From Spirochaetaceae bacterium (GTDB lineage Bacteria > Spirochaetota > Spirochaetia > DSM-2461): DNA of 64,000 bases. Positions 18,001 through 36,000 of the stretch are shown piece by piece. The number at the start of each line of letters is the position of its first letter. Within the stretch, counting starts at the first letter, position 1. The position numbers are program-made. The DNA is taken from positions 2,464,001 through 2,528,000 of the forward strand of contig OZ245056.1 of the NCBI GenBank assembly GCA_965224705.1. Direction: 5' to 3'.

Positions 18001-21000
18001 TAGAAGTGCCTGCTCTTCCCTGAATTTGAGAACATTTTTTACGGTTGGCGGCACTGAGAACCGAGCCTGGACATTTAAAAACGGAGCAATGGCACCCCAA
18101 TGTGCCGGTATAATTCATTCCGATTTTGAACGGGGTTTCATCAAAGCTGAAGTCTTCAATTGTAACGATCTGTTTGATCTTGGCAGTGAATCGTCCGTAA
18201 AATCTGCCGGCAAGCTGCGTCTTGAAGGCAGAGAGTACCCTGTACAGGACGGTGATGTTCTTCATTTCAAGTTCAATGTCTGACAGTACTTCTGGTTTCA
18301 CCCTCCCTGATACAGCAATCGGCAGATGGGCTACACAGGCATCATCGTGGGCCAGCCCTGCGCAATCAATCCAGATGGTCCAACTCTGGCGGCAACTCCT
18401 ATATCTGGTTCTTGGGGAAAGGGCAGGGAAGAATGCACAACCTTCCTGTCAGTGCATGTGGAAAAACCTGGTTATCGCAAATATCCCAGCCAGTCCTGCT
18501 GCTGATCAATCATGGTATCCACCATTTCAGACATCCCATGGTAGTTATTGACCATCGGACATGCCAGCACCGCCTGAAGTACGAGATTCCGGCTCTCCTG
18601 TAGTATGGCTTCGGCAGTAAGGTCATACACACCCGCATAGCTCCGCATCAGGGCACCAAATCCCTTTGGATAATCATCAAAGTGTACTGGCTGTATTCCA
18701 TTCTTATGTATGATTCCCGGTACCTCCACCGCAATGGAATCAGGAAAGTCGGGAATCGCCCCATTATTAAGAACATTGACCGCAAGCTCCTCATGACCGG
18801 AATCGGTGATGATTCCTTCAATAATGGGAATGACCCGTTCATGGACATCCAGCGTGATTTCAGACCAGGACTGGTTTGAGAGGGCATAACGGTAGAACTC
18901 ATAAAAGTCCATAATCCCCTTATGATCGGCGGCATCCTGGGCCCAGGAAACATACTCGCCAAGATGGCTGTCCAATGTGATGGGAAGCAGTCCATAAGTC
19001 TCAAAAATAGCCCGAAACAGACGTCTGTCCGTCCAGGGGCGTTTGCTCTCCTGCCTGTTTATCATCCAGCGTTCATTTGTTCCTTCCGTTCGGGGAACAG
19101 TGCCCGTTTCACGGACGTAGTCCCAGATATCAGTAAACCCTGGTTCCTTTTCAAAGAAGGCAGGTGCCTTGTGCCTTATGTCGGGATAAGCATCTTTTCC
19201 GCTGTCAATATAATGGGCCTCAAGCAAAACGGAGAAATGATTCAAGCCTGCTGCCCTGACCTGAAGATTTTCCAATCCGGTGTCCAGGATGGCGGGTAAA
19301 TAACGTTCGAGAGATGCGATTTCATGACACAGTCCAATAAATCTGAGATCTGGATACCTGCGAAGCACTGTTGTGGTGATGGCCGTCATGGGATTTGAGT
19401 AGTTGAATACAATGGCATCGGGACAGTGTAATTCCACATCGCCGCAGATTTCCAGGATGGGAGGAATGATGCGCAGGGCGTGAAAAATCCCGCCGGGACC
19501 GCCATTCTCCCCATAAACTTGATTGACACCGAACTGCAGGGGAGTCTTCCAATCCTGGTCCCAGAGTGTAAATCGATCGCCCACTTCAATGGAAATTATG
19601 ATGAAAGCGGCTCCTTTTAGAGCCTCAGCCCGGTCAGTGGTGGCTGAAAGGGTGAATTCCAGACCATGTTTCTCAATGAATTCACATCCTTTTTTGTATA
19701 CGGCATCCAGAGCCATGCCATTGATGTCCAGCAGAACTAATTCCGTTCCCCTGAGTACCGAACTCTGAAATACTTCACCCATTGTTCCTAAACCGAATTG
19801 GGAACTTCCTGCTCCAATGAGAACAATTTTCATAATATCTCCTTCAGGGCATCTTCAAGATAGTTCCGGCTCTGACTTGAATTTCTGTCAGATTCCGGGA
19901 AGCTGTTATTGAGATTCCTTTCATTTCCAGAACCTATTCATTAACGACCGGGGGGGTATTGTCAATGGGAAAACAATGTATCCAGAAAGATCGCACGAAT
20001 AATGAGTATTGAAAACTGTGTATCTGGTTTTATTGCTTTACCGTCCTGACACGTCCGACAGACTCCAGGGAGTCTGCGAAACTGGCCATCACCTGAATTG
20101 CTTTCCGGTAGTGTTCTTTCTCCAATGCAGTCATAAAGGTAGTTCCGGATGTGCGATGGGAGGCGAATACCGGCGCGATACTCTGTTCAGCCATTCTGGT
20201 CAGCACAGCAGGGATGAGAGCTGCTTCATCTCCAAGATTCTCACCCACCGCCCCGACTATACAGAGGTCCGACCGTTTCTCAACCTCACTTAGATGCAGA
20301 TCTTCCTTCATGGTATCAATATCTCCATCCCCAGGATTCCGATTTTCAAGGGGTTCCAGAATGACCAGAAGTGTATCACACTGGCATGCTGAATACAAAA
20401 TTTTCCATCCCATCGCGGCCAAACTCTCCAGGATTTTCAACTGTAGAGAAAGGTTGTCCCCCAGATGGGCATTCTGAAATCGACAGACGGATACACCCAT
20501 CTTTCCGGCAACCCCGGTAATTCCCGGATGGGACTTCCTTTTTTTAATCACGATCATGGTTCCCGGAGCTTCGGGGATATTGGTATTCCGGATATTGATT
20601 GGAATTCCGGCGGTGCTGACAGGCTGAATAGCCTCTTCATGAAACACTTTTGCCCCCAGGGCCGAAAGTTCGCGAAGTTCCCTGAAAGAAACCTCTTCTA
20701 TGGGAGCAGGATCATCCACGATGCCGGGATCCGCTGCCAGCAGTCCCGATACATCGGTCCAGTTTTCATAAACCCGGGCCCCTGCGCCACGAGCTATCAC
20801 AGCACCGCTGATGTCGGACCCGCCGCGGCTGAAGGCCTTTATACCCCCTCTGGCATCCTGACCATAGAATCCTGGAATAACCACCTGGCTGTCGGGGGAA
20901 ACAGCCTGATCGATCAGTTTGTAGCTCTCCGACGAAAGTTTCCCCCGGGCATCAAATCGGATGATTTCTTCGGCATCCAGGAAGGAAAATCCAATGTATT

Positions 21001-33000: not shown

Positions 33001-36000
33001 GCCATGACTCCAGCTCCTCCGAACAAGTCGATGAAGATGTTCCCATCGACATCTTTCAAGGTGGCTCCCTTACCGCTTTGAAGGGCCATGGGCATTCCTT
33101 TTGAATAGGATACGGCAGAACTCTCATTTCTGTTCTGATACTCCAGAATCTCTCTTGATTGTTTTCCCGGGGGGATTTCGTGGATTACCGGCGCATTTTC
33201 CCAGGATAGTTTTGCCAATTCTTTTTCGCTAATCATCTGATTAACCTCCGTTGATTATTATTACCTATCTCTCAGCGGCTGAACCCTTCGAGGGGTATAC
33301 GATGTCGTTTGGCGAAATTCTCTTCGCCGGGAAGAACTATTGGTTCTCCCCCCTTCCCAGCAGTTTCGATATTCTATTTGCCGCCTCCATGACGGGTTGT
33401 GAAAGCTCTTTGATTCGATCCTCAGTTAACCGCATGGCTGGACCGGAAGTCGAAATGGTGGCTACTATCTCATTGCGGAAGTTGAATATAGGTGCCGCCA
33501 CACTGTTGAGTTCCTCACCAAATTCTCCAATTTCTGCGGCGTATCCATTCTGTCTCACCTCTTCCAGAGCTGACCGGAACTGTTTTTTGTCGACAATTGT
33601 TTTAGTTGATACCTGTTCCATCGGAAGTTCATCCAGAAGAGCTTCACACTCTTCCCTATCCATGAAGGCAAGTATCGTCTTTCCAGAGGCGCAGCTGTTA
33701 ATTGGATAGGAATAGGTCACATCAGGATTAAGGACAAGATGATGAGTGCTTCTTACCTCATCAATGGCAATTATCATACTCTCAGCCATAACATTGACAT
33801 AAATATTCTCACCTGCAATCTTCTCCAATTGCAGCATCACCGGTTTTGCCACATTGCGAAGGTTTCGGCTGATGGGCACGGAACTTCCCAATTGAAAGAC
33901 CTTGAAGGTAAGACAGTATCCCCGTTCAGTCTTTTCCACATAGCCTGTCTTCGTGAATGTTGCTAGAAATCGGTGCACATTGGTCCGGGTAAATCCAAGT
34001 CCCTTAACCATGGCCGATGGTTGAACGGGCTGATGAGAGCCTATGAACTCCAGCAGGTCAAGCCCCTTGATAATGGTTGTGGAAAGGGCATATGTACCAA
34101 TATTTGTACGCACGTTACAATCTTGAGACATAAATTATATATAACCCTTACTCTTAAAAATGTCAATACAGATCTTTAATAATTTTTCTTTTTGTTAATA
34201 TACATCCATCGTCCACCTGGAAGAAGGTAAACAAATCCATGAAACCTGTGTGAAATTGATTCAGGGGAGTTTCAATTGATTCCAGATATTGGCGAATTGG
34301 CGGAAAGACCTGGCAAAGGCCCCGGAGCTATCCAGAGGAAGTTTAAACGTAATCTGGTTTTGTGATTGACTTTTATTCTAATCCAATGTACATCTTACCT
34401 GGCGTCAGAAAGCTTGTAGAGGTCTGATTTTGATTAAACCAGGAAGGATAGAGTTTTCTCATGGTACAGCTGATTTTTTCTGATTATGGTTGTGATGAGA
34501 CGAATGGCAGTTTTCAGCATGGAGAGTTTTCTTCGAGAGTTTCGTCGTAAATACTTTCTTCATAAAGTATTATTTCTTTAGTGGAATGCTCGTCTCATAC
34601 AACAAGCTTCAGAACGCTGGTAAATTCAATTTCCTGATGGGTTCCCTGTGCCGTTTTTGACATCGGGATAGAAGAACCTGTACTGAAGGAAGTATGTGGT
34701 TGTTTGGCAGGCTGCCGGAGTATGCATTGGAATGCACTGCGATTGATGCAGGAGCACCCGAGAGTATTTCAAGTACAGTTGATCGCCGTATGACGGTTAA
34801 AGACTGGTCCCGTAACAACCCCTGGACAGGAGAGCCATCCCATGAAACCCACTCGATTCGCAGAACGATTTACAAAGAAAACCGGTATTGGTGCATTGAT
34901 GGAAGATCTTGGTCAGGCAATGCAGGGCCATATCGACATGCATATGCTTGGCGGCGGGAATCCAGCTCACATCCCGGAAGTTAATGCGATCTGGCGTCGT
35001 CGTATTCAGGAAATTCTTGTCAATGGTGCCGAATTGGAAGAAACTCTGTCCAACTATGATACGCCTCAGGGAAAGAAGGTCTTTCTGGAATCCCTGGCTG
35101 ATCTCATGAATTCCGAATTTGGCTGGGAATTGAAAACAGACAATATAGCTGTTACCAACGGCAGTCAAATTGCCTCCTACATCCTTTTCAATATACTTTC
35201 CGGCCCGAGAAGTGATAATGGAATGAATCGCATCCTTTTTCCTCTCTGTCCGGAGTACATCGGATATGCCGATCAGACATCTGAATCCAAAGCCCTGGCC
35301 GCCCAACCTGCCGCATTGGAATACACACGGGAAAACTTCTTTAAGTATCATGTAGATTTCAACCACCTGGAAGTTGGAGAAGACATTTCAGCCCTGTGTG
35401 TATCCCGGCCGACCAATCCAACGGGCAATGTTCTCACCGATGAGGAAATTATCCATCTATCTCAAATCGCCTCTGCTAAGGATATTCCTCTTATTATTGA
35501 TAATGCTTATGGAGCACCCTTTCCACAAATTCTTTTTAAGGACATTAAGCCCTACTGGGACGAACACATCATTTTGAGTATGACTCTTTCAAAACTGGGA
35601 CTCCCATCGGTTCGGACCGGTATTGTTATTGCCTCAGAGGAAATAATAGCTGCTCTCTCGGCATGTAATGCTGTGTTGAGCCTCAGTAACGGCTCCTTTG
35701 GGCAGGTACTGGTGAAGCCTCTCATTGATTCCGGGGATATTCTTACCCTCTCCCGGGATGTCATTCGTCCGTTTTACCAGAAAAGATCCAGCCTTGCTGT
35801 TGAAGCATTGCAGGAAGCCTTTGGCGATAATATTCCGTATCGAATACATGAGCCCGAAGGGTCTATTTTTCTCTGGCTCTGGATTCCTGATCTTCCCATA
35901 AGCTCGGAAGAACTCTACGACCGCCTGAAACGCAGGGGCGTTCTTGTTGTGAGCGGCCATTATTTCTTCTATGGCCTGGAGAAGCCATGGCCTCATGCTC

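What a model noticed while it worked through the whole genome (the two positions that open the first line are those of the whole stretch)
20030..34131. Anaerobe-type ectoine catabolic operon in which an Alma (algal DMSP-lyase)-family racemase replaces EutA
A 13-gene operon (IclR, DABA transaminase, asd, M20 hydrolase, UehABC-type TRAP, Alma-like protein, DoeA, EutB, EutC, second DoeA, aspartokinase) encodes ectoine/hydroxyectoine breakdown without EutA, DoeB or EnuR. The slot of the racemase is taken by a bacterial member of the Alma DMSP-lyase family (PRK07475), which gives this orphan family a pathway and suggests the ancestral job of algal Alma enzymes.
Evidence so far: g2189 best Swiss-Prot hits are Alma1/3-6 (31-34%), only NCBIfam match PRK07475, no EutA model; both catalytic Cys motifs invariant in 25 homologues. 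Neighbours hit DoeA 41-42%, UehC/TeaC 57%, EutC. Of the best 80 homologous loci (318 found) 63 have doeA, 56 uehC, 52 both, 67 either, in spirochaetes, Bacillota, Desulfobacterota, Atribacterota, Synergistota. Found in 1 of 38 family genomes. The review PMC5924519 (passages, call 107) describes only proteobacterial clusters, calls EutA the racemase and notes many clusters lack it; searches for Alma plus ectoine found nothing.
(Added by a program. Inside this text positions count along the whole contig: contig position 2,464,001 is position 1 of the stretch shown here. "Call 12" and the like, gene names such as g00115 and contig names such as C1 are that model's own, and its searches are not shown. 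The text may have been shortened before it was handed on; [...] marks where a part breaks off. The agent that wrote the report below was given it as the finding of a first reader that could run no searches.)

Follow-up and report, generated by a model that had tools for sequence, protein, structure and literature searches.

The report
Ectoine-breakdown operon with orphan racemase-like enzyme
This spirochaete carries a gene cluster for importing and eating the salt-stress compound ectoine, and one of its genes, an uncharacterised relative of the algal enzyme that releases the sea-smell gas DMS, travels with ectoine genes in both ectoine eaters and ectoine makers, which gives that orphan enzyme branch a testable substrate.

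Summary
All 13 genes are present, co-oriented and tightly spaced, and a sister genome has lost almost exactly this block. Ectoine/hydroxyectoine catabolism is well supported: two DoeA hydrolases, EutB, EutC and a UehA/TeaA-like TRAP binder. EutA, DoeB and EnuR were not found. The PRK07475 two-cysteine gene is tied to ectoine, but only one branch of the family is. In 151 Desulfobacterales genomes, 10 of 11 with the close form have doeA; none of 17 with only distant forms do. It does not behave like EutA. It persists in clusters without eutB/eutC. It occurs in 20 of 25 ectC-bearing Methanotrichaceae genomes, beside ectABC in 8, and in Methanoliparum; none of the 9 archaeal genomes tested has doeA. 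Best reading: an alpha-carbon racemase or epimerase acting on ectoine or its ring-opened intermediates, not a hydroxyectoine-specific EutA substitute. The 'ancestral job of Alma' claim is unsupported, because algal-type sequences fall outside this clade. The link of this branch to ectoine was not found in the literature searches. No activity is tested.

The parts
33337..34131 (-). IclR-family regulator (in place of EnuR); first gene of the operon
   Evidence: Pfam HTH_IclR + IclR_C; iclR also heads most long homologous clusters
31842..33236 (-). Class III aminotransferase, DABA:2-oxoglutarate transaminase type (DoeD/Atf role, DABA to aspartate semialdehyde)
   Evidence: TIGR00709 403.8 bits, cut 401.6; direction inferred
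30809..31834 (-). Aspartate-semialdehyde dehydrogenase (asd, phosphorylating type)
   Evidence: TIGR01296 and PRK14874 over cut-off; only close copy in the genome
29609..30805 (-). M20 amidohydrolase; inferred N-acetyl-DABA deacetylase in place of DoeB/EutE
   Evidence: TIGR01891 over cut; DoeB2 model 271 vs cut 550; orthologue in 46 of 80 loci, DoeB in 0 of 80
28453..29541 (-). TRAP solute-binding protein, UehA/TeaA-like
   Evidence: Best PDB hits 3FXB (1e-45) and 2VPN (6e-42), next unrelated binders at 1e-27 or weaker; those entries are UehA and TeaA
27803..28393 (-). TRAP small permease DctQ
   Evidence: PF04290
26526..27806 (-). TRAP large permease DctM
   Evidence: TIGR00786 over cut
25779..26510 (-). 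PRK07475-family two-cysteine racemase-fold protein, 243 aa (GDCGF with C85, LECSL with C202); the gene in question
   Evidence: model pLDDT 90.8; fold matches allantoin racemase Z 17.6, OpaE Z 16.6, hydantoin racemase Z 16.5; no significant BLAST similarity to EutA
24564..25742 (-). DoeA1, ectoine hydrolase-like M24 protein
   Evidence: E 2e-107 to solved DoeA 6TWK, next-best family 1e-26; TIGR02993 456 vs cut 613
23572..24549 (-). EutB-like PLP dehydratase
   Evidence: EutB models are the best hits, just under cut (405/413; 354/413)
22567..23562 (-). EutC-like cyclodeaminase/imine reductase family protein
   Evidence: PRK08291 over cut; EutC 345/472
21376..22557 (-). DoeA2, second hydrolase, 51% identical to DoeA1, with altered pocket motifs (GREQDS, GDPTALFP, YVPDWGE)
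20030..21367 (-). Aspartokinase; the only one found in the genome; kept by a sister genome that lost the rest of the operon

Best explanation
The cluster imports ectoine and hydroxyectoine by a TRAP system and opens the ring with two DoeA hydrolases. The M20 enzyme removes the acetyl group, EutB/EutC remove the hydroxyl, and DABA is transaminated to aspartate semialdehyde. That product feeds homoserine synthesis, or runs through Asd and aspartokinase in reverse to aspartate, which would give NAD(P)H and ATP instead of the Ssd step of proteobacteria. The PRK07475 protein is an ectoine-linked two-cysteine enzyme that removes and returns the proton on the carbon next to the carboxylate. It is most likely a racemase or epimerase of the ectoine ring carbon C4 or of N-acetyl-DABA/DABA, including the non-hydroxylated compounds. 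It would keep the pool in the L form that DoeA, the deacetylase or EctC accept, as hydantoin and allantoin racemases do for their ring-opening hydrolases (that analogy is from my own knowledge). Shown: gene content, operon layout, fold, both cysteines, co-occurrence patterns. Inferred: every reaction, the substrate and the direction of Asd/Ask. Odds: ectoine catabolic operon about 0.85; enzyme acts on an ectoine-pathway metabolite about 0.8; alpha-carbon racemisation not restricted to hydroxy forms about 0.5.
For: DoeA1 keeps the residues matching H. elongata EutD Y52, H238, E255, R326, Y329, E374 (alignment; invariant or nearly so in 18 homologues; the residue list is recalled, the paper is not held). 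The binder keeps the positions of TeaA E9, R144, N184, F187, F209 (list recalled). Fold is closest to racemases of cyclic substrates. Desulfobacterales, 151 genomes: 11 have the close form (331 bits or more), 12 have doeA, 10 have both, mostly adjacent; 0 of 17 genomes with only distant forms (311 bits or less) have doeA. Methanotrichaceae, 81 genomes: gene in 21, ectC in 25, both in 20. In 8 it is next to ectABC in two different layouts, 5 convergent and 3 upstream co-oriented. No doeA in 8 of 8 of these genomes tested. Methanosaeta have ectABC without ectD (PMC5924519). Ca. Methanoliparum, whose copy sits on another branch with Atribacterota, also has ectABC and no doeA; I ran that test as a prediction. 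All 20 methanogen copies checked keep both cysteine motifs. Clusters with doeA and this gene but no eutB/eutC exist (L017, L026, L036, L073).
Against: No activity data. Both DoeA, EutB and EutC score under their equivalog cut-offs, and DoeA-like genes at 38-48% occur in many alphaproteobacterial loci with no other ectoine gene detected. TeaA W167 and W188 positions are changed (Y, A). 14 of 80 loci have neither doeA nor dctM, and 4 sit beside a distant M24 protein, 3 of them also beside a methylamine methyltransferase or hydantoinase-like gene. The methanogen and Desulfobacterales counts are among kin, so the Fisher values overstate, and the 331-bit line was drawn after seeing the scores. 12 of the 20 methanogen copies are not beside ectABC, and 2 of 21 are broken. 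Many genomes are incomplete MAGs; the ectD search had a silent control. No natural source of D-ectoine is known to me, and a search for one gave nothing relevant. Five ectC-bearing methanogens and 2 of 12 doeA-bearing Desulfobacterales lack the gene, so it is not essential.
Confidence: 0.5

Rival explanations
1. One reading: the protein is a non-orthologous stand-in for EutA, epimerising hydroxyectoine or hydroxy-ADABA for EutB/EutC.
For: Same superfamily fold as EutA-like proteins; next to doeA-eutB-eutC in spirochaete clusters. In 78 DoeA-centred loci it occurs in 21, EutA-like genes in 6, both in 0. L108 has the same cluster type with two EutA/maleate-isomerase-like genes and without it.
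Against: Kept without eutB/eutC and in methanogens with no doeA and, by the review, no ectD. L063 has both this gene and a EutA-like gene, which is a one-cysteine frdAB neighbour like one of the L108 pair, so L108 is ambiguous. The exclusion follows taxonomy. EutA's own reaction is unproven.
Confidence: 0.2
2. The cluster, or this enzyme, serves another cyclic amidine or osmolyte, and the link to ectoine synthesis in methanogens is shared ancestry of one transferred block.
For: Sub-cut-off scores; clade members beside distant M24, hydantoinase-like, MttB and amidinohydrolase genes; other family members sit in amino-acid ABC/FAD-oxidoreductase/ETF/purU loci.
Against: Binder closest to UehA/TeaA and hydrolase closest to DoeA by wide margins; eutB, eutC and a DABA transaminase are in the same operon; two archaeal lineages on separate branches both have ectABC.
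Confidence: 0.12
3. [quoted passage not shown] Consumers without EctC would need gamma to alpha, producers alpha to gamma.
For: Explains presence in both makers and eaters. DoeA gives both isomers and the gamma form is called wasteful without EctC (PMC5924519 section 8.4). This genome has no ectC.
Against: I know no acyl-transfer precedent in this fold; some DoeA make only the alpha isomer (PMC7192451); pure inference.
Confidence: 0.1
4. An Alma-like beta-elimination lyase: dehydration of hydroxyectoine, or DMSP cleavage.
For: 25-37% identity to algal-type domains and a shared DCGF motif; Alma1 works by alpha-proton abstraction and beta-elimination (PMC5395565); the organism occurs in mollusc samples.
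Against: Second motif is ECSL, not the ECTE/ECTQ used to define lyase homologues, and PRK07475 bacterial homologues are stated to lack DMSP lyase activity (PMC10349084). EutB is already present as dehydratase. Ectoine and ADABA have no beta leaving group, so the methanogen pattern is unexplained.
Confidence: 0.08

Closest known systems
Thermodesulfobacteriota and Bacillota putative ectoine catabolism clusters (Boas Lichty et al., AEM 2026, PMC13188858)
   Same: 9-13 co-oriented genes, two eutD/doeA, TRAP uehPQM, no eutE, no ssd; Gram-positive clusters with an amidohydrolase and no EnuR. D. alkanivorans, in their Fig. S9, carries this gene in its cluster (L126).
   Different: The main text has 0 occurrences of 'racemase' or 'Spirochaet'; no dat-asd-ask or IclR spirochaete type in the text read; no mention of PRK07475/Alma or methanogens. 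Figures are not visible to me, so their 'eutA' arrows in Figs 6-7 may be this gene under another name.
[quoted passage not shown]
   Same: TRAP importer, EutB, EutC, EutD, DABA transaminase.
   Different: No EutA, EutE, EnuR or Ssd in the cluster; two DoeA; M20 hydrolase, IclR, Asd, aspartokinase and the PRK07475 gene instead.
EutA (TIGR02990; maleate isomerase/arylmalonate decarboxylase branch)
   Same: Asp/Glu racemase superfamily fold, two cysteines, located in ectoine clusters.
   Different: No significant pairwise similarity; profile-profile probability 4.5%; different gene partners.
Alma DMSP lyases (algae, corals)
   Same: PRK07475 is the closest bacterial subfamily (PMC10349084); DCGF motif; both cysteines; 25-37% identity to algal-type domains.
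   Different: ECSL for ECTE; separate, well-supported clade; bacterial PRK07475 reported without lyase activity.
Allantoin and hydantoin racemases
   Same: Top structural matches (Z 17.6, rmsd 3.2, 205 residues; Z 16.5, rmsd 3.3, 202 residues); from my own knowledge, they act on ring substrates beside a stereospecific ring hydrolase.
   Different: 14-21% identity; the top Z values are within about 1 and so tied; the fold alone shows no function.

Membership tests
Ectoine catabolic cluster (eut/doe) | DoeA/EutD hydrolase with conserved active site | tested here: met
   E 2e-107 to 6TWK with the recalled catalytic residues kept; under the TIGR02993 equivalog cut (456 and 417 vs 613)
Ectoine catabolic cluster (eut/doe) | DoeB/EutE deacetylase next to DoeA | tested here: not met
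   TIGR02994 absent from the genome; M20 enzyme scores 271 vs 550 on DoeB2; 0 of 80 loci have DoeB
Ectoine catabolic cluster (eut/doe) | Ectoine importer (Ueh/Tea or Ehu) | tested here: met
   Best structures 3FXB, 2VPN; most recalled ligand residues kept, two changed
Ectoine catabolic cluster (eut/doe) | EnuR regulator | tested here: not met
   No tblastn hit in the genome at E 1e-8; 0 of 80 loci; IclR instead
Ectoine catabolic cluster (eut/doe) | Growth on, or induction by, ectoine | not testable with these tools
   RNA contigs show presence only
EutA | TIGR02990 match or similarity to EutA | tested here: not met
   No match; the model scores a true EutA at 421 bits
EutA | Occurs with the hydroxyectoine module EutB/EutC | tested here: inconclusive
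   eutB 43 and eutC 26 of 80 loci, many truncated; no orthologue in genomes G121, G122 and no doeA in methanogens
PRK07475 subfamily | NF005679 over cut-off | tested here: met
   287 vs 231 bits
Alma DMSP-lyase homologues (DLH) | Racemase domain with both cysteines | tested here: met
   C85, C202 invariant; fold
Alma DMSP-lyase homologues (DLH) | Motifs DCGF/NCGF and ECTE/ECTQ | tested here: not met
   DCGF present, second motif ECSL
Alma DMSP-lyase homologues (DLH) | Branches with the eukaryotic clade | tested here: not met
   Ectoine clade 99 SH-aLRT excludes the 12 algal-type rows; sister relation open, AU p 0.495
Alma DMSP-lyase homologues (DLH) | DMS release from DMSP | not testable with these tools
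   needs an assay
Two-cysteine racemases (Asp/Glu/hydantoin) | Racemase fold with a cysteine in each half | tested here: met
   Pfam PF01177 under its cut (25.5 vs 31)
Two-cysteine racemases (Asp/Glu/hydantoin) | Demonstrated racemisation | not testable with these tools
   needs an assay

The most novel reading that the evidence does not exclude
This PRK07475 branch is a so far unknown enzyme of ectoine metabolism itself: an ectoine or N-acetyl-DABA racemase (or isomer-salvage enzyme) shared by anaerobic ectoine eaters in several bacterial phyla and by ectoine-making methanogens. That would imply an unrecognised D-form or dead-end isomer pool of a globally abundant osmolyte, and give the first function for the bacterial subfamily nearest to algal DMSP lyases. 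In spirochaetes it is joined to a reversed Asd/aspartokinase step that could yield ATP.
Probability: 0.4. Interest if true: 0.75.

Novelty: new variant of a known kind. Interest (0 to 1): 0.58.

Why it matters
PRK07475 has no assigned function: it appears in 2 held papers, both versions of one study that uses it as a lyase-negative outgroup to Alma. The steps of EutABC are also still unknown. Gene context now points one branch to a short list of cheap, available substrates, so a single enzyme assay can settle it. If it acts on plain ectoine or ADABA, it adds a step to a well-studied, industrially used pathway and shows how anaerobes in saline and marine habitats recycle ectoine. It would not by itself explain the origin of Alma.

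Tried and rejected
Single-protein locus scan found nothing (28 stretches, 0 relatives); the alignment scan worked. No PDB sequence relative by phmmer (0 hits) or by profile (best E 0.088). Spirochaete phylum sample (200 genomes besides the own one): 2 had only distant PRK07475 members (46% and 37%) without doeA, and 2 had a DoeA-like hit without the gene, the strong one at a contig end; uninformative about linkage. 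The careful IQ-TREE search did not finish, so the quick tree of 65 chosen rows is reported. The 191-row FastTree left out 8 partial representatives and 50 of the 80 loci. The algal-type rows are defined by motif and domain doubling; only 3 of the 10 long proteins looked up have a cluster record from a eukaryote collection, and none is a tested Alma. Promoter and terminator scans were at chance level (17 vs 17.1; 15 vs 15.8). RNA: 4 metatranscriptome runs of one study (mollusc metagenome) have 95-100% identical contigs over parts of the operon, but contigs cannot show transcription or rank genes. An ectoine-biosynthesis reading was rejected: no ectA or ectC in the genome. A composition signal of transfer was weak: GC 49.7% vs 47.1%, 37 of 213 windows as high. 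Atlas search returned only Asp/Glu racemase family clusters. Literature searches that did not show an ectoine-PRK07475/Alma link: (listings only unless cited elsewhere). The EutD structure paper is not held. Supplements of bioRxiv versions and all figures were not seen.

Full report
OBSERVATION. Thirteen ORFs run on the minus strand from 34131 to 20030 with gaps of -4 to 100 bp: iclR, DABA transaminase, asd, M20 amidohydrolase, dctPQM, a 243-aa PRK07475 protein, doeA1, eutB, eutC, doeA2, aspartokinase. The host is a spirochaete by its closest homologues, with a 3.0-Mb single contig that is 95% complete. A same-genus genome, about 91% identical in the flanks, lacks window 21834-34347 and keeps only the tail of doeA2 and the aspartokinase. 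This marks the block as a unit and shows recent loss as one cause of its rarity (1 of 38 family genomes over the cut-off). EutA, DoeB, EnuR, EctA and EctC were not found in the genome; the control was silent.

IS IT ECTOINE? DoeA1 matches the solved H. elongata DoeA at E 2e-107, against 1e-26 for the next family. It keeps the residues I recall as catalytic; the paper is not held. The binding protein is closest to 3FXB and 2VPN, which are the ectoine binders UehA and TeaA. Five recalled ligand residues are kept and two are changed. EutB and EutC models are the best or near-best hits. Against this, DoeA1, DoeA2, EutB and EutC all miss their equivalog cut-offs, and DoeA-like genes at 38-48% occur in alphaproteobacterial loci with no other ectoine gene detected. 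I put ectoine/hydroxyectoine catabolism at about 0.85.

DOWNSTREAM ROUTE (inferred). DABA transaminase gives aspartate semialdehyde. The aspartokinase is the only one found in the genome, asd has no other close copy, and a homoserine dehydrogenase lies at window 11463-12833. The semialdehyde can therefore feed aspartate-family synthesis, or run back through Asd and aspartokinase, which would give ATP. The sister genome kept the kinase alone, which fits a biosynthetic job as well. This module is the spirochaete variant: among 80 loci the transaminase is in 17, a PanB-like/U32-like module in 19, and both in 0.

THE PRK07475 GENE. It has the Asp/Glu racemase fold (pLDDT 90.8). Top matches are allantoin racemase (Z 17.6), OpaE (16.6) and hydantoin racemase (16.5), effectively tied. 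C85 and C202 are invariant in 38 of 38 homologues. It is not a EutA by sequence. In the best 80 of 343 loci, doeA is present in 62, dctM in 55, M20 in 46, eutB in 43, eutC in 26, DoeB and EnuR in 0; 14 have neither doeA nor dctM. Gene order is shuffled between phyla while the gene stays beside doeA or the transporter. In 151 Desulfobacterales genomes, 11 carry the close form and 12 carry doeA, 10 both. None of the 17 genomes with only distant family members has doeA; the score line was drawn after the fact. Six alphaproteobacterial plasmid copies at 38-48% sit in amino-acid ABC or TAXI-TRAP loci with FAD oxidoreductases, some with ETF and purU, and no ectoine genes. So one clade is ectoine-linked, not the family, which has 1299 clusters at E 1e-10 or better.

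DOES IT REPLACE EutA? For: in 78 DoeA-centred loci it occurs in 21, EutA-like genes in 6, and both in none; L108 has EutA-like genes in a similar cluster. Against: these sets follow taxonomy and overlap my first set in part. L063 has both, and its EutA-like gene is a one-cysteine neighbour of frdAB like one of the L108 pair. The Bacillales clusters have neither. Atribacterota and Syntrophomonadaceae clusters keep the gene without eutB/eutC. Of 5 such genomes tested, one had a strong EutB-like hit elsewhere (358 bits) and another a broken EutC-like hit; G121 and G122 had neither orthologue.

THE NEW CLUE. Three loci without doeA were methanogens with the gene next to ectC. In 81 Methanotrichaceae genomes it is in 21, ectC in 25, both in 20. 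It adjoins ectABC in 8: convergently in 5, and upstream in the same direction in 3. In the others it lies elsewhere, in several beside a copper ATPase. Two copies are broken. None of 8 genomes tested has doeA. ectD was not found in 5 (silent control), and the review says these methanogens have ectABC only. One member of the family was shown to make ectoine (PMC10598746). Ca. Methanoliparum, whose copy groups with Atribacterota rather than with Methanotrichaceae, also proved to have ectABC and no doeA. These organisms have no evident use for a hydroxyectoine epimerase, so the substrate is more likely ectoine, N-acetyl-DABA or DABA. Kinship limits the statistics: this is about two archaeal acquisitions, not 21.

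MECHANISM. This superfamily removes the proton from the carbon next to a carboxylate (10.1101/161257). In ectoine that is ring carbon C4. The textbook EutA proposal, inversion at the hydroxyl-bearing C5, fits that chemistry poorly (my inference). I favour alpha-carbon racemisation or epimerisation that keeps the pool in the form the hydrolase, deacetylase or synthase accepts (0.5). Rivals: EutA stand-in 0.2, other substrate 0.12, alpha/gamma ADABA salvage 0.1, Alma-like lyase 0.08. The weak point is that no source of the D form is known.

ALMA. PRK07475 was already known as the bacterial subfamily nearest to Alma and is stated to lack lyase activity (PMC10349084). The window protein fails that paper's second motif (ECSL for ECTE). 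In a 65-row IQ-TREE quick tree the ectoine clade (18 rows, 5 of unknown context) has 99 support and excludes the 12 algal-type domains. A sister relation is not rejected (AU p 0.495) but not shown; FastTree on 191 rows also keeps the algal-type rows apart. 'Ancestral job of Alma' is unsupported.

WHAT IS IN PRINT. PMC13188858 (AEM 2026) reports Thermodesulfobacteriota clusters of 9-13 genes with two eutD and no eutE/ssd, and Bacillota clusters. I read parts 1-4 of 5 of its preprint, passages of the journal version, a supplement search and part 2 of 3 of supplement 1. Its main text has no 'racemase' and no spirochaetes. Its figures, unseen, colour some genes as eutA, and D. alkanivorans from its tree carries this gene (L126), so it may be drawn there under that name. 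Read as passages: PMC10349084, PMC5924519 (section 8.4 whole), PMC8739950, PMC9128505, PMC10598746, PMC5395565, 10.1101/161257 (110), PMC7192451. The two methanogen papers have 0 occurrences of 'racemase'. Searches showed no link between this family and ectoine; most subscription papers are outside the library.

VERDICT. A real operon of a recently described kind, in a phylum not covered by that paper, with an unreported ectoine-linked orphan enzyme whose role is probably broader than EutA's. New variant of a known kind; interest 0.58.

Noticed in passing
L044:5424-8574, L017:1833-4940, L073:12259-15690 and 16 more loci: In sulfate reducers, Atribacterota and Clostridia the dat-asd-ask module is replaced by a PanB-like hydroxymethyltransferase, a 316-aa protein with no Pfam/NCBIfam hit (U32-like by Atlas, score 0.97, family on 17-24% of members) and glutamate dehydrogenase or an aspartate aminotransferase; formate-THF ligase follows in Atribacterota. 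Possibly an undescribed anaerobic route that splits the DABA skeleton into pyruvate and a THF-bound C1 unit (inference).
   Followed up: partly
L108:11246-16226; L063:16532-20660: Maleate-isomerase/EutA-like genes, one with its second cysteine replaced by aspartate, travel with a TfrA/TfrB-like fumarate reductase pair inside doeA clusters; the reductase pair alone is also beside the PRK07475 gene in L010 and L013.
   Followed up: partly
L224:10436-10938 (same-genus genome G042): The operon is deleted down to the doeA2 tail; an about 80-bp repeat found at many places in the window's genome sits at the break and at other rearrangement points.
   Followed up: partly
window 21376-22557 and cluster of doeA homologues: Two recurring DoeA pocket types (GRxMD..YPPDWGE versus GRxQD, often with YV/FV-PDWGE) coexist in many clusters, hinting at different substrates or a heterodimer.
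   Followed up: partly
L081-L085, L088: Alphaproteobacterial PRK07475 members recur in amino-acid ABC or TAXI-TRAP loci with FAD oxidoreductases, several with ETF and purU, a separate conserved pathway of unknown substrate.
   Followed up: no
genome G000:C1:2980947-2986356 (outside the window): A second TRAP operon (DctM 46% to the window's) followed by M24-like and M20-like hydrolases by eye.
   Followed up: no
window 6152-7733: serC followed by an AsnC/Lrp regulator; a serC-asnC pair lies directly upstream of the same operon in several other spirochaete loci.
   Followed up: no
window 53101-54219 and 7742-8248: A transposase-like ORF and a fragment resembling a group II intron maturase end (both by eye, recalled resemblance).
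   Followed up: no
window 62225-63823: 532-aa protein with many tandem acidic Pro/Thr-rich repeats of about 10-12 residues.
   Followed up: no
window 17000-36500: Near-identical contigs in four mollusc metatranscriptome runs of one study, so the organism is present in mollusc samples.
   Followed up: partly
P0125 cluster: Bacterial two-domain PRK07475 proteins (about 478 aa, one record Alphaproteobacteria) doubled independently of the algal two-domain forms.
   Followed up: no
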